64,000 nucleotides of DNA, taken from Candidatus Methanomethylophilaceae archaeon (GTDB lineage: Archaea > Thermoplasmatota > Thermoplasmata > Methanomassiliicoccales > Methanomethylophilaceae). The notes beneath the pieces were generated by a model, which was given only the letters and a program-made list of their open reading frames with translations, did not search any database and was not told where the DNA came from. Shown one piece after another: positions 27,310 through 53,439 of the stretch; the first letter of the stretch is position 1, and each line of letters begins with the position of its first letter. A program made the position numbers and the translations under genes. The stretch covers positions 32,001 to 96,000 of the forward strand of contig CALUHR010000008.1 in assembly GCA_944320495.1 (NCBI GenBank). The letters run 5' to 3'.

Positions 27310-28083
27310 ATGCGCGCAGCGCTATACGCCAGGGTCTCGACGGACGACCAGGCGGTCGAGGGTTTCTCGCTCGACGCCCAGGTCAAGCGCCTCGAGGCCT
27401 ATTGCAGGGTCCGCGGCTGGGAGGTCGGCGGGATCTACAGGGACGAGGGGTTCTCCGGCAGGAACACCAAGCGTCCGGAGTACGAGAGGATGATGCGCGA
27501 GTCCGACTCGTGGGACGTCCTCCTCGTTCTGAAGATGGACCGTATCCACAGGAACAGCGTCAACTTCGCCCGCATGATGGACGACCTGCGCGACATGGGC
27601 AAGGAGTTCAACTCGGTCCAGGAGAAGTTCGACACCACCACCGCCATGGGACGGTTCGTCATGGACATCATGCAGAGGATCGCCCAGCTGGAGAGCGAGC
27701 AGATCGGCGAGAGGACGTTCATGGGCATGGAGTTCAAGGCCCGCAACGGCACCGGAAACCTCGGCTCCGGCCACCCGTACGGATACGTGTACACCGAGCA
27801 CGGCCTGGAGGTCGTGAAGGATGAGGCGCATACGGTGCGCGCGATCTACAACATGTACGTAAGGGGCTCCACCATGGAGGACATCGCCGGATTCCTCAAC
27901 AGCGCCGAGATCCCCGCCAAGAAGGGCGGCAAGTGGAACAGGCAGTCCGTCTGCAACATCCTCCACAACCCGCTCTACGTGGGATACTCGGAGTGGAACG
28001 GCATCCTGCGCAAGGGCGAGCAGCAGCCCATCGTCGAGATGGCGGTCTTCGAGAAGGTCAACGGGCCGTTGGAGATCCAGCGA
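27310..28083 (+). CDS. Serine recombinase 1 (resolvase + recombinase domain); ends at CGA
   Basis: ALYARVSTDDQ, DEGFSG, KMDRIHRN, HNPLYVG. CGA at 28081-28083 overlaps the next ATG (CGATG). Confidence 0.9.
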
Positions 28084-28940
28084 TGCGTGCGGCCATATAC
28101 GTGAGGGTCTCCACCGAGGAGCAGGCCGCCGAGGGGTACTCCATCGAGGCCCAGAAGGAGCTACTCCAGGACTACTGCATCGTCGAGGGGTGGGAGGTCG
28201 CCGGCGTCTACGAGGACGACGGATTCTCCGGAAGGAACGACAAGCGTCCCGCCTACCGCAAGATGATGTCGGAGATGGACCTTTGGGATGTGGTCGTCGT
28301 CATCAAGATGGACCGTATCCACAGGAACAGCCGCAACTTCATGTCCATGATGGACACGCTCACCAAGCATGGGAAGATGTTCGTGTCCTCGTCCGAAGCA
28401 TTGGATACGACCAACGCCCTCGGGAGGTTCGTGGTCGACATGATACAGAGGCTCGCCCAGCTGGAGAGCGAGCAGATCGGCGAGAGGACGTACATGGGCA
28501 TGCGCGAGAAGGCCGAGACCCTCGAGGCCGTCCAATCCGGTAAGAGGACCATGGGCTTCACGCCGCCGTTCGGCTACCGTCTTGAGGACGGGGCACTCGT
28601 CGAGGACGAGGGGGAGCTCCCGATCGTCAGGCGCATGTTCGCCGAATATGCCGAGGGCAGGCCCATGGATGCGATATGCTTCGGCCTCAACCGCGACGGG
28701 ATACTCACCCGCAGGGGCAATCCCTGGAACAAGCGCAACCTCGCCAACATCCTCCACAACCCCGTCTACGCCGGGTACATGAGATGGGAGGACATCCTCA
28801 TCCGCCACGATGCGGAGACGGTCCTCTCGCCGGAGCAGTTCAACGGCGTGCAGGAGCGCATCGCCTCCAGGATCAGGGACCCCTCCAAGAGGGGCGTGAA
28901 TCTCCTTCCAACAGAGTCAGATTATGCGACGGGGATGCGA
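28083..28940 (+). CDS. Serine recombinase 2; ends at CGA
   Basis: AIYVRVSTEEQ, DDGFSG, KMDRIHRN, PFGY, HNPVYAG. First CGA at 28938-28940, upstream of the TAG the track uses. Confidence 0.88.
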
Positions 28941-29156
28941 ACCGGACGAGCCGGTTAGTTAACGGAGAACGTTCGGTGCAAATATCCCATATTATAAATA
29001 ATGTATCCGAAAAAGTCCATTTGTTGACGTCTCAATCTCCATTGTCTGGCACATGCCTCTGGATGTCTATGCCTGTACGCATGCGCCACATATGGTATTA
29101 AATAGTGATTACGTCGAATCATTCCCCGGGTCCTAGACCCAATAGGAGGAAAACAA

Positions 29157-29681
29157 ATGACTGACGAATGCAAAACCATCGACCCGACGGCCTTCGGCCT
29201 GTTCTTCGTGGCCGTTGTGTCCCTTCCACTCGCCCTGGCCGGATTCTTCGGCTACATGGGCAACGAGTGGAACGCGACCATCATGGCTGGCGTCGGATCT
29301 CTGCTGATGGTAAACGGATTCTTCATTCTTCTCGCAGCGCTGTACGCCTACAAAGCCGGCAGCAACTTCGGATTCGTCGTATTCGGCCTCGTCTCCATGG
29401 GAGTGTTCTATGCCGGATACGGAGGGGGAGACCTCTGGATCAACGTCACCTTCGGAATCATATTCCTGATCTGTCTGATCTGGTCCTACCGCGCAAAGAC
29501 GCTGAAGACCCTGACGTTCATCCTGCTGACCACCGCCCTTGTGTTCATCGCCAACGGCTGTGTTATCGAGACCGGTGCCGAGTGGTCCTGGCTGTTCCTC
29601 GGAATCGCCGCCATCCTCAACTTCATCCTCACTCTGTACCTGGCTTTCGCGCTCGCCGACGAGCACATCCGCTGTGTCTGA
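29157..29681 (+). CDS. AceTr/SatP (GPR1/FUN34/YaaH)-like membrane transporter
   Basis: IDPTAFGLF N-terminal motif resembling the NPAPLGL signature; about six TM helices. Confidence 0.6.
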   Translation: MTDECKTIDPTAFGLFFVAVVSLPLALAGFFGYMGNEWNATIMAGVGSLLMVNGFFILLAALYAYKAGSNFGFVVFGLVSMGVFYAGYGGGDLWINVTFGIIFLICLIWSYRAKTLKTLTFILLTTALVFIANGCVIETGAEWSWLFLGIAAILNFILTLYLAFALADEHIRCV

Positions 29682-29755
29682 TCGGAGGACCTCAAACCCC
29701 TTACCGGCCTCTGGCCGGGACATCTTTATTTAAGCGTTCTCAATCACCGACCCTC

Positions 29756-29851
29756 ATGAAGAAGGAAATGAAGATCAAGATCGGTGCCTACTTCATGGTC
29801 ATCATCATGGTCGTCGTCGTTGTAACGGCAGCCGCCTCCGCCCTGATCTGA
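29756..29851 (+). CDS. 31-aa single-TM small protein
   Basis: MKKEMKIKIGAYFMVIIMVVVVVTAAASALI; TATA-like TTTATTTAAG upstream; TGATG coupling to the SDR gene. Below the track cutoff. Confidence 0.55.
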   Translation: MKKEMKIKIGAYFMVIIMVVVVVTAAASALI

Positions 29852-30603
29852 TGATCGCCGTCGTCACCGGGGCATCGTCGGGCATCGGGGCCGAGTTCTG
29901 CAGGGCCCTGGACGGGGAGGGGCTGGATTCCATCTGGATCATCGCCAGGAGAGCCGACAGGCTGGAGGCCCTGGCATCCGAGCTCTCCACCCCCTGCGTC
30001 GTAATCCACGCGGATCTCACCGACAGGAAGCAGCTGTCCGAGCTCGTCGGACGCATAGGATCCTCCGGCGAGAGGGTCGACTACCTGGTGAACTGCGCCG
30101 GAGTCGGCAGGTTCGGAGAGACCTGGGAGCTCTCATCGGAGGAGACGCTGTCCATGATCGACCTGAACGTCTCCGCCCTCACGGAGATGTGCCGCGGATG
30201 CATCCCCCGCATGGAATCCGGATCCCGCATCATCAACGTCTGCTCCGCATCCGCGTATCTTCCGCTGGAGCGCCTCAACGTGTATTCCGCCACCAAGGCG
30301 TACGTGCGCGCGTTCTGCAACGCCCTCGGAAGGGAGCTAAAGACCAGAGGCATCACGGTATTGGAGGTCTCCCCTGGATGGGTGGAGACAGATTTCATCC
30401 CGCTCTCCAGGTCCACAGGCGACGTTCCCGAGACTGTCTTCAAGCACACCGTTAAGGCTCGCGACGTCGCCGTGAGGGCCATCGCCGACGCCAAGCACGG
30501 GAGGAAGCGCTCGATATGCGGCGCGTACAACAGGCTCCAGGTCTTCGTGTGCACCCACATGCCTCGCATGGCATCATACGTCTGGGGAAGGTCCCTGCTG
30601 TGA
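29851..30603 (+). CDS. Short-chain dehydrogenase/reductase
   Basis: TGASSGIG, NCAG, catalytic YSATK. Confidence 0.93.
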   Translation: MIAVVTGASSGIGAEFCRALDGEGLDSIWIIARRADRLEALASELSTPCVVIHADLTDRKQLSELVGRIGSSGERVDYLVNCAGVGRFGETWELSSEETLSMIDLNVSALTEMCRGCIPRMESGSRIINVCSASAYLPLERLNVYSATKAYVRAFCNALGRELKTRGITVLEVSPGWVETDFIPLSRSTGDVPETVFKHTVKARDVAVRAIADAKHGRKRSICGAYNRLQVFVCTHMPRMASYVWGRSLL

Positions 30604-31205
30604 CGACGGTCCTCCGCGAGTTCAGGGAGGGGGACTGCAAACCCATATCCGCGATAATGTGCGACGTCTGGTCCATGGTGAGCTACGGCGCCGATGTCGC
30701 CATGCCCGGGTCGAGGATGTACTGCTGCCAATGCGTCCTCGGGTCGTCGTTCATCCGTGTGGCCGAGGTCGACGGGAGGATCGTCGGATGCGTCGGGGCC
30801 AGATACGGGAACGAGAGGGTCGATGCACCCTGGGCCGAGAGGATGCTGCGGCAAGAGAGGGATTCCTTGGCGAACTCCGAGGACGGGATGCGGATGATCG
30901 CCGAGTTCGAGTCCTACGATTCCATAGACAGGGACCTCGGCATCAGTACCGAGATCGACACCGATGCGGAGCTCACCATACTCATCCTTTCCGAGGGTTG
31001 CAGGGGACTCGGACTGGGCAGGATGATGTTCAACGCCGCCTGCGATTACCTTCGCTCCAAGGGCGCCGGGAGCATGATGCTGTACACCGACACCGACTGC
31101 AACACAGGGTTCTACGATGCCCTCGGCGCAGAGCGCGTGGCAACCTCAGGAATGATGTGCCTGGGGGAGCCGCTCGGAATGTTCCTTTACAGATATCCGC
31201 TGCGA
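30600..31205 (+). CDS. GNAT acetyltransferase; ends at CGA
   Basis: GTG start in a GTGA overlap; GCRGLGLG acetyl-CoA motif, TGFYDALG; ends YRYPL-CGA (31203-31205). Confidence 0.82.
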
Positions 31206-31212
31206 GGAGTCA

Positions 31213-32301
31213 TCGGAATCCGAACAGAGCCTTCGCATTGTCGACATGCTCCTCCGCATCGAGATGGAACGGACACCTCGAGGTGCACCTGCCACAGTGC
31301 AGACAGTCGGAAGCGTGCTTCGACAGAGCCCTGTAGTGCTCCCAGGCCATCTCGTCGCCAACGGCGAACAAGTCGCTGAACTTGTTGACCTTCCCGATGT
31401 CGATGCCTGCGGGGCACGGGAGGCAGTGGTTACAGTAGACGCACTGGTCCTACATGTCCGCCGCCGTCAGGCCGCCGATGAACGAGTAGTCCCTCTCCTC
31501 CCTAGAAGCGTCTAGGTACGAGAGCATAGCCTCGAGCTGTCCGACTGAGCCTATTCCCGGGACCACGGACACTGCCCCGGGGCGGTCCAGCGCGTACTGA
31601 ATGCACTGCGCCGGGGTCATCGCCCTCCCGAACGGGGAGGTCTCGGCATCCATCAAGATGCCTCCCCCATAGGGCTTCATCACGACTATCCCGATCCCCC
31701 TGCGCTCGCAGTCGCGGTAGAGCTCCAGCCTCTCGGGGTCCATCACGAGGCCGTTGTCCCCGGCCACGAAGTCATAGGTGGGATTGAGGCTGAGCATGAA
31801 GTCGTCGACAACCGTTTCCTCGATGAAGCGCCTGCATATCTCTGGGGTGTGAGACGTGAACCCGATGTTGTCCACGCGCCCCTCGTCCTTCCATTCGACC
31901 AGCATGTCGTACAGCCCATCGGACATGATGCGCTCGTAGTCCTGGGCCTCGTCGACGCAGTGGAAGAGCAGCAGGTCGGCGTGATCGAGACCGTACTTCC
32001 TCAGCTCGGTCTCGAAGGACTCGCGGCACTCCTCGGGGTCCCTCGTGGCCGCGTACTGACCTCCTGGGTAGTGTACGCCGGTCTGCAGCTGGAACACCAT
32101 CCCGTCTCCGTGCTCCCTGACGGCCTCCCTGATGGCGGGAGCGCAGGGGTCGTCATACATGGAGGTCTCCATGAAGTTGACGCCTGCGTCCATAGCCTTC
32201 GATACGATGGTGTGGACATCGTCACCCGCATCCCTGAGGAAGCCAGATCCAAGACCCAGTGCGCTGATCCTTTTACCGCTACGAAGTCTCCTGTACTCCA
32301 T
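31213..32301 (-). CDS. Aldo/keto reductase with 4Fe-4S domain, containing an in-frame TAG (likely Pyl); ends CGA-TGA
   Basis: After TAG (31452-31450) the frame continues DQCVYCNHCLPCP...CLHCGRCTSRCP, collinear with the paralog at 26130. 362 aa with readthrough versus 367 aa for the paralog. Confidence 0.88.
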
Positions 32302-32414
32302 GGGAACACCTACTAGTGACTGCATGTCAGCTATCTCCCGTATAATTACTATGTGGTCACGCTCACGAGAAGACGACATCGATATAACCGCACATAGCGT
32401 CCACCTCATCAGAC

Positions 32415-36642: not shown

Positions 36643-37833
36643 TCAGAGTTCGTCGCGCAGGTACATCATCATCCCCTGCAGGGAGTTGAGCACCTGGGAG
36701 TATCCGTATTCGAGCTGAGCCTCCTCGGGCGTCAGGGAGCCGACGTACTCGTCCTGATGCCGGGGATCCCTGGATTCGCTGAGGACGGTGATGATCCTGC
36801 GGAATCCGTCGAGGACGCTGTCGTGGTCCTGGAAATCGATGGAGAGGATCGCATCGCACACCGAGATGTCGGTCTTGAGGAAATCGACGATGTCGTCGCA
36901 CACCTCGAGCGGTATGTCCCCGTTGACCGCCGAGTCGAGGAACAGATCGATCTTGGAGTCCTTCATGTCGCGGACGCGCTGTATGATGTCGACCTTCTCC
37001 CTGCTGAGGAAGGCGCCCTGCGCATTGCCCTGCGTTTCGACGGCGGCTTCGTCGGCGGGGGCCTCTTCGGGCTCGGGTTCGGAAGCGGGGATCTCGGATT
37101 CGGTCCCTTCGACCTCTGCGACAGGTGGTTCCTGCTCGACCGGTTCCGGTTCGGCAGAGGGAGCCTCCGGCTCGGTGACCTCCTCCTCGACAGGGGCCTG
37201 CGCCTCCTGGACGGGTTCGGCGCTGTATGCCGACTCTAGGACGGAGAGCTTCTGCTCGGCGAGCATGAGGTCGGTCTTCAGGGAGGCGATGGTCGCGCGT
37301 AGACTCCCGTTCTCTTCGGAGAGACGGTCGCGTTCCGCCTCGGCCTCGGACAGCTGGTCCCTGGCGGTCTGGGCGTCACCCCTGGCGAATTCGAGCTCGG
37401 ACGACATCTCATCCACGCGGGCCCTGCAGGACTTGAGTTCATCCATCACGGATGCGAGGGCATCGCTGTCATCGTGAGCGTTGAGCGATTCGGCGGCCTG
37501 CCTGATGATCTCGCGGACGCTGCCGAGCAGCTCGTCGTCGAATCCCTCCACGGTCGGTTCCGATTTGAGCGCATTGAACGCATCCTCGTCGGCCCTCTCC
37601 GACGAGGAGAGCCTCGACAGGTATTCCGGGGAATCAAGGGGATCCAGCTCGATGGCGGTTTCGCCCTCGGTGTCCAGGAGGGTATCGCAGGCATCGATGT
37701 CGTCCCCCAATGAGACGATGATATCGATGTACGTGTCGACGTTGGAGCTGTCGATCTTCGCCATCGAGGCGAAGACCATGATCTCGTTCAGCTTACGGTC
37801 CCTTACCCTGGTGATCAGGTTTGCATCCCACAT
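36643..37833 (-). CDS. Hypothetical acidic coiled-coil protein
   Basis: C-terminal part of track ORF 36643-38667, from ATG 37833 (MWDANL); E/P/A-rich linker; ends TGA. Confidence 0.65.
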   Translation of the reverse strand: MWDANLITRVRDRKLNEIMVFASMAKIDSSNVDTYIDIIVSLGDDIDACDTLLDTEGETAIELDPLDSPEYLSRLSSSERADEDAFNALKSEPTVEGFDDELLGSVREIIRQAAESLNAHDDSDALASVMDELKSCRARVDEMSSELEFARGDAQTARDQLSEAEAERDRLSEENGSLRATIASLKTDLMLAEQKLSVLESAYSAEPVQEAQAPVEEEVTEPEAPSAEPEPVEQEPPVAEVEGTESEIPASEPEPEEAPADEAAVETQGNAQGAFLSREKVDIIQRVRDMKDSKIDLFLDSAVNGDIPLEVCDDIVDFLKTDISVCDAILSIDFQDHDSVLDGFRRIITVLSESRDPRHQDEYVGSLTPEEAQLEYGYSQVLNSLQGMMMYLRDEL

Positions 37834-37893
37834 GAGGCACGAATCGTGTCGATGTGATATAGAGTTGCGGATGCGTATTCGCTTGAATCGGAT

Positions 37894-38667
37894 TCGAGGC
37901 GAGAGGCTGCGGTCGGAGGAGAGCGGATAATCTGAATTGAATGCGCATCTGGCGTACATGGCGGCCACATATCTGGGCATCTCCCTGCGGAAGGCCGTGA
38001 GCGCATCGGATTCCTTCATGTCCAGGACGTCGCCGAACATGGAATCGAATCCCTCCTCGGACACCGTGCCCAACGAGATGCAGACCTTCGAGATCTCGGA
38101 ACTCTCGACGTTGCCGAGGGAAGCGATGCGAAGCAGCACGGAGCACTCTCTCCTGGTGACGGAGATGTAATCGGTAATCCCCTCCAGTATCTCCGGGTCC
38201 TGTCCAGAGCAGCGTTCGGACGCGCGGTCCATGAGGTCCATGACACGGCGGAACACCAGGGAGTCGCTGTCTGTGAGAGAGCATTCCGGCCTCCCATCGC
38301 GGAAGATGTCCAACGCCATCATGAGCAGCGGGGTCTGGCCGGTGAGCTCCTGTATCATCCAGACGAAATGACCCTCGTCCTCCATGTCCTCCCTGTCCAG
38401 CCTGTCGAGATAGGAGGAGAACATCTCCGTCGGCATGGGAGGGCATCCCTCGGTCAGGGTGTCCATCATCTCCTCGAACTCTGTCAGGTCGTTGACTCCG
38501 ATCTTCGCGATGCACCGGGCGTAGTTGATCTGTCCCGCAAGGATCCTGACCTTGATCGACCTCTCAGTCTCGCTCAGCGACTGGTCGAACGTTGCGGCGG
38601 CTATCTCGCAGCTCTTGCGGACGATGATCCTGCGCAGAATCTGTATGTCGAGATAGTCGAATAACAT
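37894..38667 (-). CDS. Hypothetical protein (257 aa); ends at CGA
   Basis: N-terminal part of the track ORF; four in-frame CGAs in the following AT-richer linker. Confidence 0.62.
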
Positions 38668-42985: not shown

Positions 42986-44674
42986 ATGTTCATACCCACC
43001 ACCAGGGAGGAGATGGACCGCCTGGGCTGGGACCGGGCGGACATCCTGCTGGTCTCGGGTGACACCTACACCGACAACTCCTACAACGGGACCGCCCTGG
43101 TGGGCCACTGGCTGATGGACCACGGGTACAGGGTCGGCATCATAGCACAGCCGAGGGTCAACACGGGGGAGGACATCTCCCGCCTCGGCCGCCCCAGGTT
43201 GTTCTGGTCCGTCTCGGCCGGATGCGTAGACTCCATGGTGGCGAACTACACGCCGACCAGGAAGTTCCGCAAGGAGGACGACTTCACCCCGGGAGGCGTC
43301 AACGACCGCCGTCCGGACAGGGCCTGCATCGCCTACACCAACCTGATCAAGAGGCACTGCAAGGGGGAGCCGGTGTTCCTGGCGGGCGTCGAGGCCAGTC
43401 TCAGACGCATCGCGCACTACGACTTCTGGTCCGACTCCGTCCGCCGCTCCGTGCTCTTCGACGCGAAGGCCGACGGGATCGTCTACGGGATGGGGGAGCT
43501 GACCAACCTCCAGATCGCCGAGAGGCTGGATTCCGGCGATGACTGGAGGGACCTCCGCGGCGTCTGCCACGCATCCTCATCGAAACCGGACGGATGCGTG
43601 GAGATGCCCTCGTACGAGGAGGTCTCCAGGAGGGACGATCGGAGGGCGTTCATGAGGGCGTTCTCCATCCTGAGGCACAACTCCGACCCCGTCACCGCGA
43701 GACAGCTCTGCCAGGCCCACGGGAACCGCTGGCTGGTGCAGAACCGCCCCCAGAGGTGCATGACCACGGAGGAGCTCGACGCGGCCTACGAGTCCTCCTT
43801 CGAGAACAGGGTCCACCCCTTCTACGCCGGAGGCGGACGCGTCGCCGCCCTGGACACCGTCAGGAACTCCGTCACCACGCATAGGGGATGCTACGGGGAC
43901 TGCTCCTTCTGCGCCATAGCGGCGCACCAGGGGACGACGGTCGTCTCGAGATCGCACGACTCCATCATGAGGGAGGTCCGTCGCATGGCCGCCTCCGAGG
44001 GTTTCGACGGCGTCATACGCGATGTGGGAGGGGCCACGGCCAACATGTACGGGATCGAATGCACCAAGAAGCTCTCGAACGGGAGGTGCGAGGATAGGAG
44101 ATGCCTCGGAGGGAGACCGTGTCCGAGGCTGCCGATCGACCACTCGGAGCAGATCCGCCTGCTGGATGACGTATCGTCGGTGGACGGTGTGCGCAGAGTG
44201 TTCATCGCCTCCGGCATAAGGCACGACATGGTGCTCGCGGACAGGCGCAGGGGCGGGGACTACCTGGACAGGGTCGTCTCCGAGCACGTGTCCGGACAGA
44301 TGAAGGTCGCCCCGGAGCACGTGTGCGACGATGTTCTCAGGCTGATGGGCAAGCCCGGCAGGGATGCCCTGCTGGGATTCAAGGGCATGTTCGACGAGTG
44401 CTGCAGGGAGCGCGGGAAGGAGGAGTTCCTCACCTACTACCTGATGGCCGCGCATCCCGGATGCACCCGGGACCACATGCGCGAACTCGCATCCTTCTGT
44501 ACCAGGGAGCTCGGCACCCATCCCGAGCAGGTGCAGGTCTTCACCCCGACCCCTTCCACGTATTCGACGGCAATGTGGTGGTGCGGCACCGACGAGAGGG
44601 GCCGTCCGGTGACCGTCGAACGCTCCATCCAGGGCAGGCAGAGGCAGAAGGAGATGGTCTGCGGGAGGCGCCGA
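42986..44674 (+). CDS. ygiQ: YgiQ-family (UPF0313) radical SAM protein; ends at CGA
   Basis: GDTYTD, GCVDSMVANYT, GVEASLRRIAHYD, RGCYGDCSFC, QVFTPTP. CGA at 44672-44674 overlaps the next ATG. Confidence 0.92.
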
Positions 44675-45345
44675 TGGACGCCTGTCTCTCCCGCTTGGTC
44701 TCCGAACGCTGCGGATGCGAGGTGGACGCTTCGTTCATCAGAAGGAAGGAGTTCCGCTTCGCATGGGGCACGCGCGACGGACGTCCCGTCATCCAGATAT
44801 CGGACTATCTCCGGGACGCCCCGGACCAGGTCCTGACGGACTTCGGGGAGATGCTGGTCCGTCGCTCCAGGAAGCAGAGGACCGCCGTTCCGGCGTCGTT
44901 CTGCGAATACGTGGCCACCGACGACTTCGTCATATCCCGGAGGCCCACCTACATCGATCGCAGCAGGAACCTGCTCCGCACCGACATCGGGGACCACGCC
45001 TTCATACCGGACTCGATCCAGAGGCTCCTGGACGCGGGGCTGCTGACACCCGAGGACATTCGCAACTCCTGGTTCTCCTGGACCCGCAGGGACAACCTGC
45101 GCAGGCTGGGGTTCTGCTCCACGCTGTTCCGTGTCGTGGGGATATCCTCTGCCCTGGACTCGCCGGAAGTCCCGGATTCCATCAGGGACTATGTGGTCTA
45201 CCATGAGTGCCTGCATCTCAGGCAGGGATACCGCCCCGGCGGGCGCATCCATGATGCGGAGTTTCGTCGTTGGGAGCGCTCCTACCCCGGATGGAAGGAA
45301 TGCGAGAACGCCCTTCGCACCCTCCACCGCCGGACAGGTTCTTGA
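44674..45345 (+). CDS. M48/YgjP-like zinc metalloprotease-domain protein
   Basis: DYVVYHECLH (HExxH) and HDAEF; ATG in the CGATG overlap. Confidence 0.75.
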   Translation: MDACLSRLVSERCGCEVDASFIRRKEFRFAWGTRDGRPVIQISDYLRDAPDQVLTDFGEMLVRRSRKQRTAVPASFCEYVATDDFVISRRPTYIDRSRNLLRTDIGDHAFIPDSIQRLLDAGLLTPEDIRNSWFSWTRRDNLRRLGFCSTLFRVVGISSALDSPEVPDSIRDYVVYHECLHLRQGYRPGGRIHDAEFRRWERSYPGWKECENALRTLHRRTGS

Positions 45346-45367
45346 ATGACGAGCCGATTCGGCATCC

Positions 45368-46243
45368 ATGGAGCAGAGAGGCTTCGTGTTCCACGGAACC
45401 GACGGAGAGGCCGTGTACAGCATAGACCAGGTCAGGGAGCTCGCCTCCCGCGACGATCCGGACGGGGTGTACGCCCTCGCGATGGCATACCTCTTCGGAT
45501 GGGACGTCGAGGCCGATGAGGACAGGGGATACGATCTTCTCGAGAAGGCAGTGGGGCTCGGACAGACCGACGCCATGGCCCTGATGGTCCGCCTGTACAT
45601 GCAGAACGAGTACGACGGCATCGACAACGAGCGCGCCGCCGAACTTTCGATCACAGCGGCCAAGGACGGCATCCCCGAGGCGCAGCTCTATGCCGGCCTC
45701 GCCTACATGGACGGGGTCTCCGTACCCCAGGACTATGCGGAGGCGTCCCGCTACCTGTCCCTCGCGGCCAACCAGGGCGACCAGGAGGCCAGGACCGCGC
45801 TGGCGTACCTCTACGAGAACGGCCTGGGCGTGGGGAAGGACGAGGCCAAGGCATTCTCCATGTACAGGACGGCCGCCCGCGGAGGATGCGTGAACGCCAT
45901 GTTCCACGCCGGCATCTGCCTCGAGTTCGGCATCGGCACCAAGGCGGACCCCGACAAGGCCAAGGGATGGTATCTCGAGGGCTCCAAGGGAGGGGATGCC
46001 TTCGCCATGGAGAGGCTCGGCCACCTGACCCTCGATGAGGATCCCGGGGAGGCCTTCGAATGGTTCCTCAAGGCCGCCCTCGAGGGTGTGACCACCGCCA
46101 TGGGGACCGTCGGGTTCTGCTATCTGAACGGGGTCGGGACGGAGGCCGACAGGACGGAGGCCGTGAAATGGCTCCGCATGGCGGCCGACAACGGCATCGA
46201 GGAGGCCTCGGAGGCGCTCTCCGAGCTGGGGGGTCGCCACCGA
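45368..46243 (+). CDS. Sel1-repeat protein; ends at CGA
   Basis: Repeated AQLYAGLAY.DG..V.QD..EA units; CGA at 46241-46243. Confidence 0.85.
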
Positions 46244-46304: not shown

Positions 46305-46973
46305 ATGACCGCAGGCGATTCTCTCGAGACCATGGCGGCTGGGGGAGACCCAGATTCGCAGTTCCAGCTCGGCGTCCAGTACCTCTACGGCACCGGCGAC
46401 ACCCCCAAGGACGCCTCCAAGGCCGCCGAATGGTTCAGGAAGGCCATGGAGAGCGGACATGTCCCCGCCATCAGGGAGTACGGGATTCTCGTCGCATCCA
46501 GCGAGGGCGTCGAGGCCGACCCGGAGGAGGGGGCACGCATCCTCGGAAGGGCGGCCGACGAGCTCGACCCCAGCGCGATGTACCATCTCGGCCTGATGTA
46601 CGAGAAGGGCATCGGCGTGCCCGTGGACATGCAGAAGGCCGTCAGGCTCCTCGCTTACGCGGCCATGATGGGCTATCCCGGCGCCGACATCGACGCACAG
46701 CGCATCGATGACATCCTCACCGAGGAGCGCAACAGGCGCCTGAAGTCCAGGCCCGTCATCAAGCTCATGCTCTCCGACGTGGACGTGGAGGCGGCCTGCT
46801 GCCCGAGGATGCTTGACGACCTCCTGGCCCAGAGGACCGTTTTCACCGAGAGCGAGGAGGGCCCCGCCCTGCTCGGCGACGACGCCCAGGGATTCGAGGC
46901 CGTCTTCCACGCGTGCCCCTACTGCGGAGCTCCCATCCAGATCGTTCCGAGGGACAAGCAGTACTTCGGATGA
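46305..46973 (+). CDS. Sel1-repeat protein with C-terminal Cys-containing domain
   Basis: SQFQLGVQYLYG, AMYHLGLMYEKG; C-terminal CCPRM...CPYCG. The start may instead be GTG 46293. Confidence 0.8.
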   Translation: MTAGDSLETMAAGGDPDSQFQLGVQYLYGTGDTPKDASKAAEWFRKAMESGHVPAIREYGILVASSEGVEADPEEGARILGRAADELDPSAMYHLGLMYEKGIGVPVDMQKAVRLLAYAAMMGYPGADIDAQRIDDILTEERNRRLKSRPVIKLMLSDVDVEAACCPRMLDDLLAQRTVFTESEEGPALLGDDAQGFEAVFHACPYCGAPIQIVPRDKQYFG

Positions 46974-47927
46974 TCGCATCCGGGCGGCCAGGAACTCGGC
47001 CGCCTCGGGGCATCCTATCTCGGATGACAGCCTGATCAGCCCCATGCCCTTGCGCTCGTCGGCTTCGATGCCCTCCCCGTTGAGGTACATCAGCCCGAGC
47101 ATGAATATGGCCAGTGGATCCCACGATTCCGCCGCACCCCTGAAGAGGCTTCTGGCGGAGCCGAGGTCCCTCTCCACCCCTAAGCCTGAATAGTACATCA
47201 TCCCCAGCGTGAGCATGGACTCGCGATCGCCGCGTTCCGCCGAGCATGACAGCATCCGGGCGGCCAGGACCTCGTCCTTCGCGACGCCGTCGCCGTACAG
47301 GTAGCGGAGGCCGATCTCCCTCAGCGAGTTGGGCTCCCCGTGCGATGCGGCGATGCCGTACCACTCCACCGCCTTTGCCGGATCCTTCCCCGTCCCCTCG
47401 CCGGTCTCGAACATGCGCGCGACGTTGAACATCGCATCGACGTTGCCATGGTCGGCGGATTTCGAGAAGAGGGCGAACGCCTCAGACCTGTCCAGACGTG
47501 TGCCCCAGCCGTTGTAGTACAGGATCCCTAGGTTGCACTGCGCGCCCGGATGGCCCTGGTCGGCGGCAAGTAGATACCACTTGGCGGCCTCCATCTTGTT
47601 GACCGGTATGCCGAGACCCTTGTCGCAGATGTAGCCGAGTCCGTACTGCGCCTCGGAGTACCCCTGGTCCGCTGCTTTGCGGTACCAGTGGATGGCCTCC
47701 GTCGCATCGGCCGGCATCCCGATCCCGTTGAGCAGGAAGTAGCCGTAGGTGTACTGCGCCTCGGCATATCCGGAACGGGCGGCATCGGAGATGAGGGAGA
47801 CCGCCCTCTTCGGGTCCCTCTCGACGCCGTCGCCTTCGTAACAGCGTCTGCCCAGAATGTACTGCGCCTCGGGATCGCCGCGTTCGGAACGGGCGGTCAG
47901 CTCCAGGATGGAATGGCCGTCGGACAT
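46974..47927 (-). CDS. Sel1-repeat protein; ends at CGA
   Basis: About eight Sel1 units (AQYILG, AQYTYG, AQYGLG, AQCNLG...). CGA at 46976-46974 abuts the convergent gene's TGA. Confidence 0.88.
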
Positions 47928-48084
47928 ATGACCATAAACCGACTATCTCCAATTAATGATGTCTGTCGAACTGGGACGCATCCATCGTTCCAGGATGGGA
48001 CAGTCACCCATCGTCGGCTGATCGCACGGATCCCACGCGTCTTTCGATGCAGAATCTATATGTCCGTACTCCATTCCGAATCCC

Positions 48085-48642
48085 ATGGCAGACCCACAGA
48101 CCGAGGAGTACACCCTGGAGGAGGCCGCTGCGATCATAGAGGCGGCCATCGACAGGAAGAAATCTGAGATTGAGTGCCTGCGGAAGCGCGCGAACCGCCT
48201 CAAGAAGGAGGAGAAGGTCAACGCCAACCGCCAGCTCGTCGCCTATCTCGAGGCTGACGTGACCGCATACACCACCGTTCTCGCCGACATGCGCGACGAC
48301 GACGCCCTCCTCGAGGGTCTCGACCTGGACGCCGAGCCCGTGGAGGTCCCGGACGACTACCAGGACTACATCGACGGACTCTCCGCGGACGACCTCGAGA
48401 ACGAGATGGACGCGGAGTCCATCCGCGCCGACTACTGCGACGCCGTCGTCGAGGAGATGTGCACCTCCATCGGCGAGCAGGCCCTCAGCTCCAAGAAGAT
48501 GGTGAAGGCCCTCCTGGAGGACCCGTACGCACTGGAGCAGATCGGCGAGGTCGTGTTCTACGACGACTACCTCTACGACCTCTTCAAGACCATCTCCGCC
48601 GAGAAGGCTGAGAAGAAGTCCAAGAAGAAAAAGAAGAAGTGA
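48085..48642 (+). CDS. Acidic hypothetical protein with Lys-rich tail
   Basis: 185 aa, D/E-rich, ends KKSKKKKKK; strong coding-type codon usage. Confidence 0.7.
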   Translation: MADPQTEEYTLEEAAAIIEAAIDRKKSEIECLRKRANRLKKEEKVNANRQLVAYLEADVTAYTTVLADMRDDDALLEGLDLDAEPVEVPDDYQDYIDGLSADDLENEMDAESIRADYCDAVVEEMCTSIGEQALSSKKMVKALLEDPYALEQIGEVVFYDDYLYDLFKTISAEKAEKKSKKKKKK

Positions 48643-49337
48643 TCCCGGTGCCCGCAAGCAAGTACGAGAGGGAGCTGAGATTCATCGATTCCGAGGTCGC
48701 CAGGCTCAACCGCGGACTCAAGGACCTAGCGGAACGCATGCCCGACAGCCCTTCAGAGGCGGCCAGAAAGGCCGACGAGGTTCTGGGCATCCAGGACAAG
48801 ATCGCCACCCTGATCGCCAGGAAGCGCGAGATCGAGGACTCCTTCATCAGGGCCGGGATGGACGTCCCCGACATCGGACGCAGCATGAACGCCACCGTCC
48901 ACAACGCCGGGGGATTCGAGATCCACGGGACCCAGGAGGCGGAGACCGTGGCCGGCCTTAAGCCGACCCAGATGTCCATCGAGGGCATCAACGAGGACAT
49001 CCGCAGCATCAACGCGGAGCTCGCCTCCATCGAGGACCGCCGGGTCGCCGCCGAGATCGAGGGCGACTCCGACGAGGTCCAGAAGCTCGACATGATGGCA
49101 TCGTCCCTCCGTTCCAGGAGGGACTCCCTGATCCAGTCCGCCAGAGAGATCCGCTCCGCCCCCAAGGAGGAGGAGCCCTCGCAGGTGAGCGGCGAGGATC
49201 TCGAGAGGATCGCCAGACTCGAGTCCGAGACGGCCTCCCTGCGCTCGCAGGTCTCCGACGTGAGGAACGGCCTGCAGGACGTCAAGGAGCAGCTCAGGCA
49301 GATCATGCTGGCCCTGGGCATCGAACCGGACGAATGA
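48639..49337 (+). CDS. Coiled-coil hypothetical protein
   Basis: GTG start in a GTGA overlap; heptad-rich sequence. Confidence 0.65.
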   Translation: MIPVPASKYERELRFIDSEVARLNRGLKDLAERMPDSPSEAARKADEVLGIQDKIATLIARKREIEDSFIRAGMDVPDIGRSMNATVHNAGGFEIHGTQEAETVAGLKPTQMSIEGINEDIRSINAELASIEDRRVAAEIEGDSDEVQKLDMMASSLRSRRDSLIQSAREIRSAPKEEEPSQVSGEDLERIARLESETASLRSQVSDVRNGLQDVKEQLRQIMLALGIEPDE

Positions 49338-51410
49338 TCGTCCCTCCGCGGCCTCGATGAGGCCGCGGATCAACTCCCCTTCCCTTGCGGACCAGAAGCC
49401 GACGTCACATACCACGACGAGTCTGCGTCTGGCCCTTGAGACCGCCGTGTTGATCACCCTTCTGCCCATCGGCGTCTCCGAGCTCGTGAACCTCAGGGGG
49501 ACGTCCCTGTTCACGGTCCCGCTGTCCGCCACGCTGAGCACCACCGTGTCCCATTCCCTCCCCTGGGACCCGTGGACGGTCATCACGCAGTCTGAATACC
49601 TGCGCCCCACCTTGGACCTCAGGAGCCTGCACTGCGCCGTGTAAGGCGAAAGGACGCACACATCCGAGGGGTCTGGCGACGAAGCCTTCAGCAGCCTGGC
49701 TATGGCATCCGCCTCCGCCCTGTTCTCGCGGGTGTCGCGCTCCCCGCAGACGACGTCGATGCACTCTATCGACATGTCCGTCTCCGAGGAACCGGTCATG
49801 CCGTTGCGGTAGACGTAGCGGTCCAGGACCCTGGCGAGGGATTCCCCGAACCTCCTCGAATCTGTCAGGTCCCTGCGCACTGTGACCGAGAAGGACGGCC
49901 CGGAGCCGGAGATGTACTCGGCACGCAGGTCGATCAGGCCTCTTGTGAGGACGGTCTCGCAATGGAGGGCGGACATGTTCCAGATGAACGCATCGGAAAG
50001 CCATCCGCCCGACTGAGCCCTGTCCATGAGCAGGGCCTCGTCGAGCTGGGTCACCGGCGGAAGCTGCATGTGGTCCCCGAACATGGCCACCGGCACGCCG
50101 TTGGTGAAGAGGGCGAGCGCCTGCACCAGGCCACAGTATCCGGCCTCGTCGAGGAATATCCTGTCCACGTCGAGCTCCATCCTCCCGTCCTCGGGGGAGC
50201 CCTTCGGACGGAATCTGGAGATGAACTGGTGGGGCGTCGCCGCGATTATCGGAGCACTGGCTATCCTGTTCCCGGTCGACCTGGACCTCAGCACGGACAT
50301 CTCATCGTAGAGCCTGGAGATCTCCGCCGATATCTCCTCCGCGCTCCACTCGCCGTACTCGGAGATCTCCGCCGCCGGACGCTCGCGGTCGAAGAGGGCG
50401 GAATGGAGCTATCTCGCGGCCTCCGACAGCGGTACGCCCTCCGACATTATCGCGGCGGTCGAAGGGCGCATGGAAGCCACCGTCATTATGTCCCCGATGA
50501 TGCGCTCCCTCTCAGGATCACCGTCGGCATACCCCTCCGCATCGTCCAGGATCCCGGCGGACGTCAGGTGCTCGAGCTGGGCCCTTACGGAATCGCAGGC
50601 CCTCTCGTAGAGGACCTCCTCGAGATTCCCGATGGACCTGGCACATCCGTCTATCCTCATCTGGGCCTGGTTGTCCTCGCACATGTCCGGATGCTCCGCG
50701 AGGAACCCCTTCGTCGGGACGCCCAGCCTGACTATCCCCTTCGGGACCCCGTCCTCGCCGAACGCCCCCAGGATCCCCCTCAGCACCTGCTCGACCGAGT
50801 TGTTGGTGGGTGCGAACACCGCGACCCTCTCACCGGCCTCGAGACAGCCGCGGATGCAGGATGCCAGAACGAACTGGGTCTTGCCCGTGCCCGGGGCCCC
50901 CCAGACATACGACATCGACGACGAGGCGACCGCCAGGGCCGCCGATTCCTGCTGTCCGGTCGGGACGCCGGGATATTGCGGCTCGACCGTGTTCTGAGGC
51001 TCGCCGGGGGCTCTGACGTAGGCCCCGTACCTGCGGTAGAAGTCCCCCGCGGCCAGTACCAGGAACTTCATGTCCGCGAGGACCGAGATCCTGGCACCCT
51101 CCACGGACATGACGCGGAGGACCTCGGCATCAGGCCTGACCACGATGGTCCTCGAGATCTCGTCGTACCTCGTGAACCCGGCATCCTGCTCGCCCAGGAC
51201 CCTCTCGCCTATCCTGAGCAGGAGGCCCGAGGTGTCGCTGAGGCGGGCCGCCAGATGCAGTATCGCGAAGCCCTGCCTCACATCGGCGGAGGTCACCAGG
51301 GTCTCGGACATCCCCATCGGTGGATCCGTCACCCACTGCATGTCCTCCATGTAGCGGTAGACGGCATCGGCCGATCCGGAGAACACCGCTGATATCTCTT
51401 CCCCATCCAT
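49338..51410 (-). CDS. Upf1/DNA2-like SF1B helicase with an in-frame TAG (likely Pyl); ends at CGA
   Basis: GAPGTGKT lies before TAG 50411-50409; DEAG, GDHMQLPPV, TVHGSQGREWD and NTAVSRAR lie after it in the same frame. 690 aa with readthrough. Confidence 0.85.
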
Positions 51411-51482
51411 GACGCCGTCTGCCGCAATGGGGATTTAAGCGGAACGGCGCAGGCTACACTCTTCGATATAGGGAGCGTAGCA

Positions 51483-51917
51483 TCAGGAGTAGAAGCTGGC
51501 CCAGTTCTGCTCGATGTCCTTGTCATCGAACTTGGGGACTCCCTCGGAGAAATCGTCCCAGTCCACGGGCTCCCTGGAGAGCACGACGAAGGAGTTGTTC
51601 CCTGTGTCGAACTTGATGGCGTCGGAGGAGACCATGATCTTGACGTTGAACAGCATGCTGATGTTCAGGTCCTTGTAGTCCCCGTCGGGGTCCTCGACGG
51701 AACGGTCCCTGCGCAGGCTGTTGATGCGGATCTTGCGCTCCTTGAACAGGCCCTTCACGACCTTGGTGGCCCTGTCGAGGTAGTATCCGTCGCCCAGTTC
51801 CAGCGACCAGTACTCGACGCCCGCCGCATCCGGGCCGACCTCGGCCTCCGTCCATCCGGTGTAGTCGTCCTTGCTGGTGCCAGCGTAGATCCTGTATTGA
51901 ATCTCCTTCGAGATCAT
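51483..51917 (-). CDS. Hypothetical protein
   Basis: 144 aa with coding-type codon usage; no motif recognised. Confidence 0.65.
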   Translation of the reverse strand: MISKEIQYRIYAGTSKDDYTGWTEAEVGPDAAGVEYWSLELGDGYYLDRATKVVKGLFKERKIRINSLRRDRSVEDPDGDYKDLNISMLFNVKIMVSSDAIKFDTGNNSFVVLSREPVDWDDFSEGVPKFDDKDIEQNWASFYS

Positions 51918-52051
51918 CCCGTACCCTGCCTCTCCATGGATGTCCGATATTTAGCTCTTAATCGGCCCCATCCCGGTTTTCGATGGCCGTTATCCCGCCC
52001 CGTGAGTAACCGGGGCAATCATCATTATAGCGTCCTCCCGATACGGGTCGC

Positions 52052-52933
52052 ATGTTCGCGGACGCCTGTGGCAAGGTCTCGGAGTTCTCCAGACCTGTGG
52101 TCATCTCGACTAGGCATCAGGACGGCACCATCAAGACCGAATGCGGCACGTTCATCGTCCTCAACCGGGACGGCTGGATAATCACCGCCGGCCACATGTA
52201 CGACTCCTATGTGAAGTACCAGGGGGACCGCAAGAAGGCCGAGGAGATCGAGGAGCTCAACGCCGCCCGCAGCTCCAGGCCCGGTGCCCCGTCGCAGCCG
52301 GTGAAGCTCGATCCCGGCATGATAACGAACCACTCCTTCTGGTGGGGCTGGGACGGCGTCCGCATCACCAACGTCTACGTCAACAGGCAGCTGGACATGG
52401 CCGTGGGAAGGCTGGAGCCCTTCGACCCCGAATGGGTCCGTGAGTATCCGGTCCTCAGGGACCCGGACCATCTCCGCCCGGGCACCAGCGTGTGCAGGTC
52501 CGGATACCCGTTCGTCAACATCACCGCGTCCTGGGACGACGCGACCTCCTCGTTCAGGATACCCAAGATCCCGATCAGGGACCTGATATTCCCCAACGAG
52601 GGCATACACACGCGGACCGTCGACCGCGGCAGGACCAGGGACGGCGACTTCCGCATGCTCTACGTGGAGACGTCGTCGCCCGGGCTCAAAGGCCAGTCGG
52701 GGGGCCCCATCTTCGACAGGGAGGGGAGGATCTACGCGATGCAGGTGCAGACCATGCACATGCCCCTCGGCTTCCATCCCACCGTCGAGTACGACGGCAA
52801 GACCGTCGTGGAGAACCAGTTCATGAACGTCGGCCTCGGGGTCCATGTGGCCACCATCAGGGACGTCCTCGACAGCCGCGGCGTGAGATACGACGCCGAG
52901 GAGGACGCCGGGGGATACAGGATCGTGGGCCGA
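52052..52933 (+). CDS. Trypsin-like serine protease; ends CGA(-TGA)
   Basis: Catalytic triad motifs ITAGH, DMAVG, GQSGGP. Confidence 0.82.
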
Positions 52934-53439
52934 TGACCGAACCGCTCTTCACCGTGTCGACGGCGTACACGCTGTCCACCTACCGTGACTACAACCGCGC
53001 CGTGCAGGCCGCCAACGGAGTCTACCGGAGGATCTGGCTCTCCGCCGTCATCTACATCGCGGCCGGCGCCCTCCTCTGCCTGCTCCTGGAGACGTGGATG
53101 CCCGCGCCGCTGTTCGTCATACTCGCGGCGGTGAACATATGGCTGAACTTCAGGAACCTGAGGAGGGCGGAGGACTTCCAGTACCAGCAGGAGCAGCTCA
53201 TCGGCACGGTGCGCTACGACTTCTACGACGACAGGATCGATGTCACCACCACCGACGGTACGACCCAGAACCCGTACTCCGGCGTTCAGCGCGTCTACGA
53301 GACCGACAGGTCGTACCTGATCATGTTCGCGCCCATGTCCGGGGCCATCCTCCCCCGCGAGGACTGCAGCCCCGAGCTCATCGAGTTCCTCGCTACACGG
53401 TTTAAGTTTGAAAGACTACGTTCCCCCCGTTCGATTTAA
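52933..53439 (+). CDS. YcxB-like membrane protein
   Basis: Two TM helices then YDFYDDRI...YSGVQRVYETDRSYLI...AILPR; ends TAA. Confidence 0.7.
   Translation: MTEPLFTVSTAYTLSTYRDYNRAVQAANGVYRRIWLSAVIYIAAGALLCLLLETWMPAPLFVILAAVNIWLNFRNLRRAEDFQYQQEQLIGTVRYDFYDDRIDVTTTDGTTQNPYSGVQRVYETDRSYLIMFAPMSGAILPREDCSPELIEFLATRFKFERLRSPRSI

What the first reader, a model, noticed from the sequence alone, without database searches (positions are those of the whole stretch)
28081..52935. CGATG stop/start couplings mimic the TGATG operon overlap
Recombinase1 to recombinase2 (28081-28085), ygiQ to the protease-domain gene (44672-44676) and trypsin-like to YcxB (52931-52935) all join as CGATG. The ATPase to DUF4435 junction is ATGCGCGA (8010-8003). 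The same window shows the canonical TGATG coupling at 29849-29853. CGA therefore occupies the stop slot of standard translational-coupling geometry.
Basis: seen in the sequence. Interest (0 to 1): 0.75.

Follow-up and report, generated by a model that had tools for sequence, protein, structure and literature searches.

The report
CGA stop codons at coupled gene junctions
In this gut methanogen the arginine codon CGA sits where a stop codon belongs at overlapping gene junctions (CGATG in place of TGATG), which supports CGA ending translation in a free-living cell, a change I found described in no paper.

Summary
The motif alone means little: CGATG occurs 11,209 times in the genome and is not enriched at start codons, and neither is TGATG.

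Conditional tests are decisive:
- Where an open, coding upstream frame runs into an ATG, the overlapping codon is TGA 38 times, CGA 34 times, and all 13 other NNA codons together 16 times.
- Coding signal in the upstream frame collapses right after CGA.
- The downstream starts carry the same Shine-Dalgarno signal as TGATG and ATGA junctions.
- Relatives have TGA in the same column. The ATPase-to-DUF4435 junction is ATGCGCGA in 9 genomes of the genus and ATGCGTGA in 5. The ATP synthase C-to-F junction is TGATG or TAATG in 29 family genomes and CGATG only here.
- A sister genome run through the same pipeline shows TGA 15, CGA 1.
- Metatranscriptome contigs keep CGA, so no editing to UGA was seen.

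CGA ends about 24% of genes here. The scan had already flagged CGA as a stop on other pieces of this genome; this report adds the junction evidence. That the release factor reads CGA, and that these junctions couple translation, are inferred, not shown.

The parts
27310..28083 (+). Serine-recombinase-like gene 1 (Resolvase + Recombinase domains), ending at in-frame CGA 28081-28083. The next standard stop is 7 codons on (28102-28104).
   Evidence: Pfam hits; gene call; coding score falls from +0.63 to -0.97 after the CGA.
28081..28085 (+). CGATG junction: CGA of gene 1 overlaps the ATG of gene 2 by 1 nt.
   Evidence: Sequence. In the genus the same junction reads CGATG in 3 genomes, TGATG in 4, TGA plus 2-4 nt plus ATG in 4, and ATG followed 7 nt later by CGA in 4.
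28083..28940 (+). Serine-recombinase-like gene 2. The start is validated because the Resolvase profile begins at residue 3. It also ends at CGA (28938-28940).
42986..44674 (+). YgiQ-type radical SAM gene, 562 codons, ending at CGA 44672-44674. The table-11 frame runs 54 codons further.
   Evidence: Pfam. More than 60 bacterial and archaeal homologues stop 0-24 codons after this column. Genus orthologues toggle TGA and CGA in the same column.
44672..44676 (+). CGATG junction from ygiQ to the downstream gene.
   Evidence: Sequence. Orthologues show TGATG (L016, L009) or CGATG (L002, L018). The downstream N-terminus (M-D-A-x-L-S) is conserved.
44674..45345 (+). Downstream gene, 223 aa, with a weak YgjP-like metallopeptidase match below the Pfam cut-off.
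   Evidence: coding-frame switch at the junction.
52052..52933 (+). Trypsin-like peptidase gene ending GGC CGA, followed directly by TGA (52934-52936).
   Evidence: Pfam. The 24 genus orthologues examined place TGA or TAA directly after the last residue (G, E or D), the position that CGA holds here.
52931..52936 (+). CGATGA junction. It reads either as a CGA stop with a 1-nt overlap and a backup TGA, or by the standard code as an ATGA overlap. Ambiguous on its own.
   Evidence: Genome-wide, CGA is the codon before ATGA in 13-15 junctions against fewer than 1 expected, and in 0 of 61 in sister genome G008.
52933..53439 (+). YcxB-like gene, 168 aa.
   Evidence: Pfam; gene call. The start ATGACC is conserved in several orthologues.
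8003..9043 (-). AAA_21/AAA_15 ATPase gene, 346 codons, ending at CGA 8005-8003. The table-11 frame runs 110 codons further, over the next gene.
   Evidence: The Pfam domains end at residue 331, at the last positions of both profiles. Coding score falls from +0.33 to -0.85 after the CGA. The gene is found in 57 of 60 genus genomes.
8003..8010 (-). 8-nt overlap ATGCGCGA: ATG of the DUF4435 gene, then the CGA stop of the ATPase gene.
   Evidence: In the same column, 9 genus genomes have ATGCGCGA and 5 have ATGCGTGA. The T/C difference is synonymous (CGT/CGC) in the downstream frame.
7147..8010 (-). DUF4435 gene, 287 aa.
   Evidence: Pfam profile position 6 aligns at residue 27.
29849..29853 (+). 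TGATG junction between a 31-codon ORF (29756-29851) and a short-chain dehydrogenase gene (29851-30603).
   Evidence: The downstream N-terminus shows the usual TGxxxGIG motif. The upstream ORF is unverified.
18164..19441 (+). Nre gene ending at CGA 19439-19441, a further example in the window. The table-11 frame stays open for 344 more codons across a radical SAM gene that lies in another frame.
   Evidence: The Nre_C profile ends (110/110) at residue 428 and the CGA is codon 430; gene call.

Best explanation
In this archaeon CGA ends translation of about a quarter of the genes. It is a methanogen of the Methanomethylophilaceae: its assembly holds a methyl-coenzyme M reductase alpha gene, and its relatives are Methanomassiliicoccales genomes assembled from metagenomes. 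The CGATG and ATGnnCGA junctions are the direct counterparts of TGATG and ATGnnTGA.

Proposed mechanism: the upstream ribosome stops at CGA. The start codon of the next gene overlaps or lies just before that codon, behind a Shine-Dalgarno motif embedded in the upstream gene. The ribosome can therefore restart there (termination-reinitiation coupling).

Shown:
- the upstream coding frame ends at CGA;
- the downstream gene starts at the overlapping ATG;
- relatives have TGA or TAA in the same column;
- the geometry and Shine-Dalgarno content match canonical junctions;
- RNA-run contigs carry CGA unedited at one junction.

Inferred:
- the single release factor aRF1 reads CGA and releases the peptide;
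- reinitiation depends on that termination;
- the retained but abnormal tRNA-Arg(UCG) makes the stop slightly leaky, as the conserved in-frame CGA at codon 78 of the aRF1 gene would require.
For: - CGA is nearly absent from gene bodies and piles up at gene ends: 3-8 per decile against 316 in the last decile, while control rare codons stay flat in the body with only a smaller rise in the last decile.
- With CGA as a stop, 409 of 1675 genes end in CGA, and same-strand overlaps of 60 nt or more drop from 25 to 0.
- 54 CGATG junctions were called, 39 of them unambiguous. In the 22 with a run-on of 10 or more codons, the upstream-frame score goes from +0.45 to -0.89 per codon at the CGA, with 0 exceptions.
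- Slot test with starts called under the standard code: TGA 38, CGA 34, others 16. Sister genome G008 as control: TGA 15, CGA 1.
- A Shine-Dalgarno 5-mer is present at 61% of CGATG junctions, 57% of TGATG, 52% of ATGA, and 8% of internal CGATG.
- Orthologue ends against G008: 73 of 80 own CGA stops align to TGA, 59 of them within 3 codons. Junctions with conserved flanks read CGATG here and TGATG there.
- All four window junctions were checked in the genus.
- The ATP synthase C-to-F junction is TGATG in 24 and TAATG in 5 family genomes, and CGATG only here.
- RNA-run contigs from 2 studies bridge that junction with no differences.
- tRNA-Arg(UCG) has a broken 31-39 pair in 6 genus genomes, and C33 in G008. 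It is canonical in 11 copies from other genera.
Against: - No protein or ribosome data: termination at CGA is inferred from DNA alone.
- A tRNA-Arg(UCG) gene is still present, and the aRF1 gene needs CGA read as Arg at codon 78. CGA is therefore not a pure stop.
- No obvious change in the NIKS or YxCxxxF motifs of aRF1 separates this genus from its relatives. The one nearby difference is N51 (S in one genome) in place of D/E.
- 15 of the 54 junctions are CGATGA and can also be read as ATGA overlaps.
- At the ATP synthase junction a read-through would add only 5 residues, so that case alone could be a tolerated mutation.
- Gene calls come from my own simple caller.
- The RNA evidence consists of contigs, which can hide partial editing and may include DNA.
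Confidence: 0.8

Rival explanations
1. CGA is an unassigned or 'hungry' codon, not a true stop. Ribosomes stall there and are cleared by rescue factors. The downstream genes start independently at their own Shine-Dalgarno sites. The CGATG geometry is merely inherited from ancestral TGATG by T-to-C mutation under GC pressure.
For: Sister genome G008 has almost no CGA in coding regions (0.04 per 1000; 3 of 119,112 aligned codons) yet hardly uses CGA at gene ends, so a CGA-free stage exists. The tRNA-Arg(UCG) looks impaired. No clear aRF1 motif change was found.
Against: About 24% of genes, including ATP synthase subunit C, end this way, which would be very costly without productive peptide release. 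From general knowledge, the archaeal rescue factor Pelota lacks the peptide-release motif. CGA ends are as tightly placed relative to starts as TGA ends. Backup standard stops are only mildly enriched.
Confidence: 0.1
2. The mRNA is edited from C to U at these sites, so the ribosome sees an ordinary UGA.
For: CGA and TGA differ by a single C/T. Such editing creates stops in plant organelles (general knowledge).
Against: Contigs from three metatranscriptome runs (two studies) bridge the ATP synthase CGATG junction with zero differences. Those runs cover the operon but not the flanking gene that the DNA run covers, so they look like transcripts. I know of no such editing system in archaea.
Confidence: 0.03
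3. The standard code applies: CGA is a rare Arg codon, the upstream genes really run on to the next standard stop, and the junction motifs are chance.
For: CGATG is abundant and not enriched at starts by a simple composition test. A tRNA-Arg(UCG) gene exists.
Against: Coding signal, Pfam domain ends and homologue ends all stop at CGA. It would require out-of-frame overlaps of 110-322 codons in 9 genomes at a single junction. The slot test gives CGA 34 against 0-4 for every other sense codon.
Confidence: 0.01
4. CGA is a programmed -1 frameshift site. The downstream frame is -1 relative to the upstream frame, so the two ORFs would be fused into one protein.
For: At CGATG the ATG frame is the -1 frame of the upstream gene, and a slowly decoded codon can promote slippage (general knowledge).
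Against: The same junctions carry TGA or TAA in relatives. The partners are separate proteins in general, as with ATP synthase subunits C and F. The downstream ORFs keep ATG plus Shine-Dalgarno. Junctions with 8- and 14-nt overlaps do not fit a single slip site.
Confidence: 0.01

Closest known systems
Overlapping stop/start junctions (UGAUG, AUGA) with termination-reinitiation coupling in archaea and bacteria (Huber et al. 2019, PMC6728339)
   Same: Co-directional genes with a 1-nt or 8-nt stop/start overlap, a Shine-Dalgarno motif inside the upstream gene, and often subunits of one complex (ATP synthase C and F). Orthologous junctions in relatives are literally TGATG or TAATG.
   Different: The codon in the stop position is CGA, a sense codon in every described code of cellular genomes. 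The 4-nt ATGA form is impossible with CGA, so the 1-nt form takes over its share. Coupling itself has not been tested here.
Sense-to-stop codes of organelles (NCBI tables 2, 22, 23: AGA/AGG, UCA, UUA; from my own knowledge)
   Same: A former sense codon disappears from gene bodies and marks gene ends.
   Different: Those are tiny organelle genomes. This is the chromosome of a free-living archaeon with about 1,700 genes, a single aRF1 and a retained cognate tRNA gene.
Suggestion that CGA may be a stop in two hydrothermal-vent archaeal assemblies with CGG read as Trp (Melnykov 2026, bioRxiv 10.64898/2026.04.02.715157)
   Same: Archaea in which CGA is absent from conserved domains; the author raises the possibility that it is a stop.
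   Different: A different habitat and different assemblies. There the tRNA-UCG is absent and CGG is reassigned. No gene-end or junction evidence was given and the question was left open. Here CGG remains a rare codon with its tRNA-Arg(CCG) gene present, and gene ends were tested directly.
Unassigned codons and the codon-capture route (CGG in Mycoplasma capricolum, AGA/AUA in Micrococcus luteus; from my own knowledge)
   Same: Sister genome G008 looks like this stage: CGA is almost gone from genes and is barely used at gene ends.
   Different: In the window's genome the codon has come back in large numbers, but at gene ends.
Autoregulated release factor gene (bacterial prfB with an in-frame UGA; from my own knowledge)
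   Same: The only release-factor gene carries, in frame, the very codon whose reading is in question (CGA at codon 78, in 10 of 10 genus genomes).
   Different: No frameshift is involved. Full-length aRF1 would need CGA read as Arg. Untested.

Membership tests
Stop/start overlap junction used for translational coupling | Co-directional neighbouring genes | tested here: met
   All four window junctions and 54 genome-wide.
Stop/start overlap junction used for translational coupling | The end of the upstream coding frame and the start codon share 1, 4 or a few nucleotides | tested here: met
   Coding signal switches frame exactly at CGA. Pfam domain limits on both sides agree.
Stop/start overlap junction used for translational coupling | Shine-Dalgarno motif upstream of the restart codon, inside the upstream gene | tested here: met
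   33 of 54 CGATG junctions, against 21 of 37 TGATG and 199 of 2611 internal CGATG. The start caller used an upstream weight matrix, so the test is partly circular, but equally so for all classes.
Stop/start overlap junction used for translational coupling | Translation of the downstream gene depends on ribosomes reaching the upstream stop | not testable with these tools
   Needs reporter constructs, as in PMC6728339.
Sense-to-stop genetic code variant | The codon is absent from conserved coding positions | tested here: met
   0.22 per 1000 codons in gene bodies. 377 ORFs of 300 or more codons have none. One known exception: aRF1 codon 78.
Sense-to-stop genetic code variant | The codon stands where homologues have standard stops | tested here: met
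   73 of 80 against G008.
Sense-to-stop genetic code variant | Cognate tRNA lost or disabled | tested here: inconclusive
   The tRNA-Arg(UCG) gene is present, but its 31-39 pair is mismatched in 6 genus genomes and position 33 is C in G008. It is canonical in 11 copies from other genera. Function unknown.
Sense-to-stop genetic code variant | The release factor recognises the codon; protein ends confirmed | not testable with these tools
   No proteomic or biochemical data. The aRF1 motifs are not visibly changed.
Standard code (table 11), CGA = Arg | CGA aligns with conserved Arg throughout proteins | tested here: not met
   Gene bodies lack CGA, and the frames after CGA are non-coding or belong to another gene.
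Unassigned codon (codon simply unused) | The codon is absent from gene ends as well as gene bodies | tested here: not met
   409 gene ends at CGA in this genome. The feature is nearly met in sister genome G008.

The most novel reading that the evidence does not exclude
CGA is a fourth, slightly leaky stop codon in a free-living archaeal genus, read by an aRF1 with no obvious motif change. It arose by codon capture: CGA was first purged from genes (the stage seen in G008) and then re-created at gene ends by T-to-C changes of TGA in GC-richer lineages. It is efficient enough to sustain termination-reinitiation coupling in essential operons. A crippled tRNA-Arg(UCG) is kept because the aRF1 gene itself senses the balance between release factor and tRNA through its conserved in-frame CGA.
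Probability: 0.45. Interest if true: 0.95.

Novelty: new variant of a known kind. Interest (0 to 1): 0.85.

Why it matters
- A sense codon turned into a stop codon has been accepted only for organelles. In a cellular genome it would show that the release-factor side of the code can also evolve in free-living organisms.
- The junction evidence is functional in kind. Ribosomes must end at CGA for hundreds of genes, some in essential operons, to keep the layout that relatives maintain with TGA.
- Code-inference screens built on amino-acid alignments cannot detect new stop codons (PMC8629427). Standard-code gene callers, as in my table-11 run, extend about a quarter of the genes of this genus and lose or truncate their neighbours.
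- The genus offers living intermediates, from CGA-free genomes to CGA-stop-rich ones, for testing codon-capture theory.

Tried and rejected
- Motif-versus-composition test and raw positional profiles around starts. CGATG, like CCATG and GCATG, is common before ATG simply because position 0 is A. TGATG fails the same test, so the test was dropped as uninformative.
- CGA usage in relatives from single 20-kb samples with a crude ORF picker. Contamination by shadow ORFs made it too noisy, and no conclusion was drawn.
- BLAST-type DNA search for the tRNA missed several genus copies. A pattern search missed G008 and G015 because their copies are divergent. G008's copy was found with ARAGORN on fetched DNA. 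G015 was not resolved.
- A search for ribosomal protein L2 to pick a highly expressed operon found nothing in this 90.6%-complete assembly, so the ATP synthase operon was used instead.
- RNA runs leave parts of the stretch uncovered. Nothing was concluded from the uncovered parts.
- Backup standard stops after CGA are only mildly enriched (6.4% against 3.3% at the next codon). This is not strong enough to argue for leakiness.
- Literature searches for a published CGA stop in Methanomassiliicoccales or other archaea found only the open question in the 2026 preprint.


Full report
**1. The observation**
The five motifs are at the stated coordinates. The window is 61% GC and lies on contig C8 of a 1.77-Mb, 14-contig assembly.

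In each of the four CGA junctions the CGA is in frame with the upstream gene, and by table 11 that frame simply runs on:
- ATPase: 110 further codons, lying over the DUF4435 gene.
- YgiQ: 54 further codons.
- Recombinase 1: 7 further codons.
- Trypsin-like gene: TGA follows directly.

Pfam places the ends of the upstream proteins and the starts of the downstream ones at the junctions. The AAA_21 and AAA_15 profiles end at residue 331 of a 346-codon frame. The Resolvase profile starts at residue 3 of recombinase 2. DUF4435 profile position 6 aligns at residue 27.

**2. The bare motif is not informative**
CGATG occurs 382 times in the window and 11,209 times in the genome, mostly inside genes. 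Relative to all ATGs it precedes called starts at 0.72 times the average rate, and TGATG at 0.45 times. Positional profiles show that every NNA triplet is raised just before ATG.

**3. Genome-wide behaviour of CGA**
- Of 1,920 stop-to-stop ORFs of 300 or more codons, 377 contain no CGA. These include ORFs of up to 2,045 codons.
- ORFs with a single CGA have it in the first or the last tenth.
- I built a codon-model gene caller in which CGA scores zero. With it, CGA occurs 3-8 times per decile of gene body and 316 times in the last decile. Control rare codons (CGG, AGA, CGT, TCA and others) stay flat in the body and rise less in the last decile.
- Reading CGA as a stop gives 1,675 genes instead of 1,551. 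Their stops are TGA 1,195, CGA 409, TAA 54 and TAG 17.

**4. Junction statistics**
With CGA as a stop, same-strand overlaps of 60 nt or more fall from 25 to 0.
- Of 240 CGA-ended genes with a same-strand neighbour, 54 (22.5%) overlap the next start by exactly 1 nt. None falls at offsets -2 or 0, and 7 have the 8-nt form.
- Of 880 TGA-ended genes, 209 have the 4-nt ATGA form, 37 have TGATG and 19 have the 8-nt form. No TAATG junction was called.
- Of the 54 CGATG junctions, 15 are CGATGA and so are ambiguous. For the 22 whose run-on is 10 or more codons, the upstream-frame score is +0.45 per codon before CGA and -0.89 after it. The new frame scores +0.45. There are no exceptions.

The cleanest test uses starts called under the standard code. 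Where an open, coding upstream frame meets an ATG in the -2 register, the overlapping codon is TGA 38 times, CGA 34 times, and the 13 other NNA codons together 16 times. At ATGA junctions, CGA is the preceding codon 15 times.

The same pipeline run on 820 kb of sister genome G008 (same genus, 53.6% GC) gives TGA 15 and CGA 1, with 0 of 61 at ATGA junctions.

A 5-mer of GGAGGTGAT lies 4-18 nt upstream of:
- 61% of CGATG junction starts,
- 57% of TGATG junction starts,
- 52% of ATGA junction starts,
- 23% of starts after long gaps,
- 8% of internal CGATG sites.

**5. Orthologous junctions**
Against G008, 80 own CGA-ended genes had an orthologue end. 73 of these align to TGA, 31 in the identical column and 59 within 3 codons. 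Several junctions have conserved flanks on both sides and read CGATG here and TGATG there. Others read ATG-n11-CGA here against ATG-n11-TGA there, or CGATG here against ATGA there.

The four window junctions in the genus:
- YgiQ ends at TGA or CGA in the same column (L006 against L007 and L023), and as TGATG or CGATG elsewhere. The downstream N-terminus is conserved. More than 60 bacterial and archaeal homologues stop 0-24 codons after this column.
- ATPase to DUF4435 reads ATGCGCGA in 9 genomes and ATGCGTGA in 5. The T/C difference is synonymous in the downstream frame. The C form leaves the standard frame open for 110-322 further codons.
- Recombinase 1 to 2 reads CGATG in 3 genomes, TGATG in 4, TGA plus 2-4 nt plus ATG in 4, and ATG followed 7 nt later by CGA in 4.
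- The trypsin-like gene has TGA or TAA directly after the last residue in 24 orthologues. This genome has GGC CGA TGA there.

The best single case lies outside the window. A-type ATP synthase subunit C (PF01992) joins subunit F (PF01990) at C13:268300-268304. That junction reads TGATG in 24 genomes and TAATG in 5, across at least 9 genera of the family, with an invariant GGTGAT just upstream. It reads CGATG only here.

**6. Editing**
Contigs from three metatranscriptome runs, belonging to two studies, bridge that junction with no differences. Those runs have no depth over the neighbouring non-operon gene, whereas a DNA run covers it evenly. Complete C-to-U editing is therefore unlikely. Partial editing cannot be excluded from contigs.

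**7. Machinery**
- ARAGORN finds tRNA-Arg with anticodons GCG, CCG, UCG, CCU and UCU.
- The UCG species has a mismatched 31-39 pair in six genus genomes: A.A here, C.A in four, and U.C in one. In G008 it has C33 and A37. Eleven copies from other genera are canonical.
- The single aRF1 gene (C2:85936-87165, minus strand) has an in-frame CGA at codon 78, a conserved Arg, in 10 of 10 genus genomes. Other genera carry CGA at codon 25 or codon 11.
- The NIKS and YxCxxxF motifs are unchanged. The residue equivalent to 51 is N in 9 of the 10 genus genomes (S in one) and D or E elsewhere.
- G008 has 3 CGA in 119,112 aligned codons, yet about 2% CGA-first gene ends. It looks like a CGA-purged stage.

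**8. Identity and prior knowledge**
The assembly has a methyl-coenzyme M reductase alpha gene. Its relatives are named Methanomassiliicoccales or Methanomethylophilaceae metagenome-assembled genomes, including UBA71.

Earlier notes of this scan had already called CGA a stop on other pieces of this genome. I re-derived that claim independently and added the junction evidence.

In the literature:
- I found no description of this.
- Codetta cannot detect new stop codons.
- A 2026 preprint leaves open whether CGA is a stop in two unrelated vent archaea.
- Coupling at UGAUG and AUGA overlaps by termination-reinitiation is established for Haloferax volcanii.

**9. Verdict**
It is shown that the upstream frames end at CGA. 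Release by aRF1 and actual coupling are inferred.

Noticed in passing
window 46971-46976 and 49335-49340; genome-wide: Convergent genes end back to back on the palindromic hexamers TGATCG and CGATCG. 29 of 245 convergent pairs abut with no gap (13 CGA/CGA, 15 CGA/TGA, 1 TGA/TGA), against 6 or fewer at neighbouring distances. CGATCG is the commonest context of CGA stops (55 of 409). The base after a CGA stop is T in 54% of cases, against 28% after TGA.
   Followed up: partly
own genome C2:85936-87165 (minus strand); loci L168-L197: The only aRF1 gene has an in-frame CGA at codon 78 (a conserved Arg) in 10 of 10 genus genomes. Other genera of the family keep a CGA at codon 25 (three genera) or codon 11 (one genus). 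Conservation of a synonymous codon across genera suggests that it is functional.
   Followed up: partly
own genome C13:413317-413390; loci L199-L217; G008 at 762581-762657 of the fetched 820 kb: tRNA-Arg(UCG) is retained, but its anticodon arm is abnormal throughout the genus. The 31-39 pair is mismatched in six genomes, and G008 has C33 and A37. Eleven copies from other genera are canonical.
   Followed up: partly
G008 (same genus, 53.6% GC), 820 kb fetched as L039 and L047-L086: CGA is almost absent from genes (0.04 per 1000), yet only about 2% of orthologue ends are CGA-first, and there is one CGATG junction. This may be an intermediate stage of the code change.
   Followed up: partly
window 27310-28940: The tandem pair of short serine-recombinase-like genes (Resolvase + Recombinase domains, no zinc-ribbon part) is present as an adjacent pair in 54 of 60 genus genomes. 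It looks like a conserved core gene pair rather than a mobile element.
   Followed up: no
window 7147-9043: The AAA_21 ATPase gene is found in 57 of 60 genus genomes. In the 15 loci read it is followed by the conserved start of the DUF4435 gene. That is unusually conserved for what looks like a defence-type pair.
   Followed up: no
window 36643-38667 (minus strand): A table-11 ORF of 674 codons has an in-frame CGA at 37896-37894. Good coding signal continues in the same frame from an ATG 58 nt further on (37833). There is no Pfam hit. It could be two genes that happen to share a frame, or a read-through candidate.
   Followed up: no
window 45368-46243 and 21039-21671 (minus strand): These two genes also end in CGATG. 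The ATG after 46243 opens only a 21-codon frame, and no downstream gene was called after 21039. Not every CGATG at a gene end is a junction.
   Followed up: partly
whole genome: TAG ends only 17 of 1,675 called genes and TAA only 54. The ribosomal protein L2 family was not found in this 90.6%-complete assembly.
   Followed up: no
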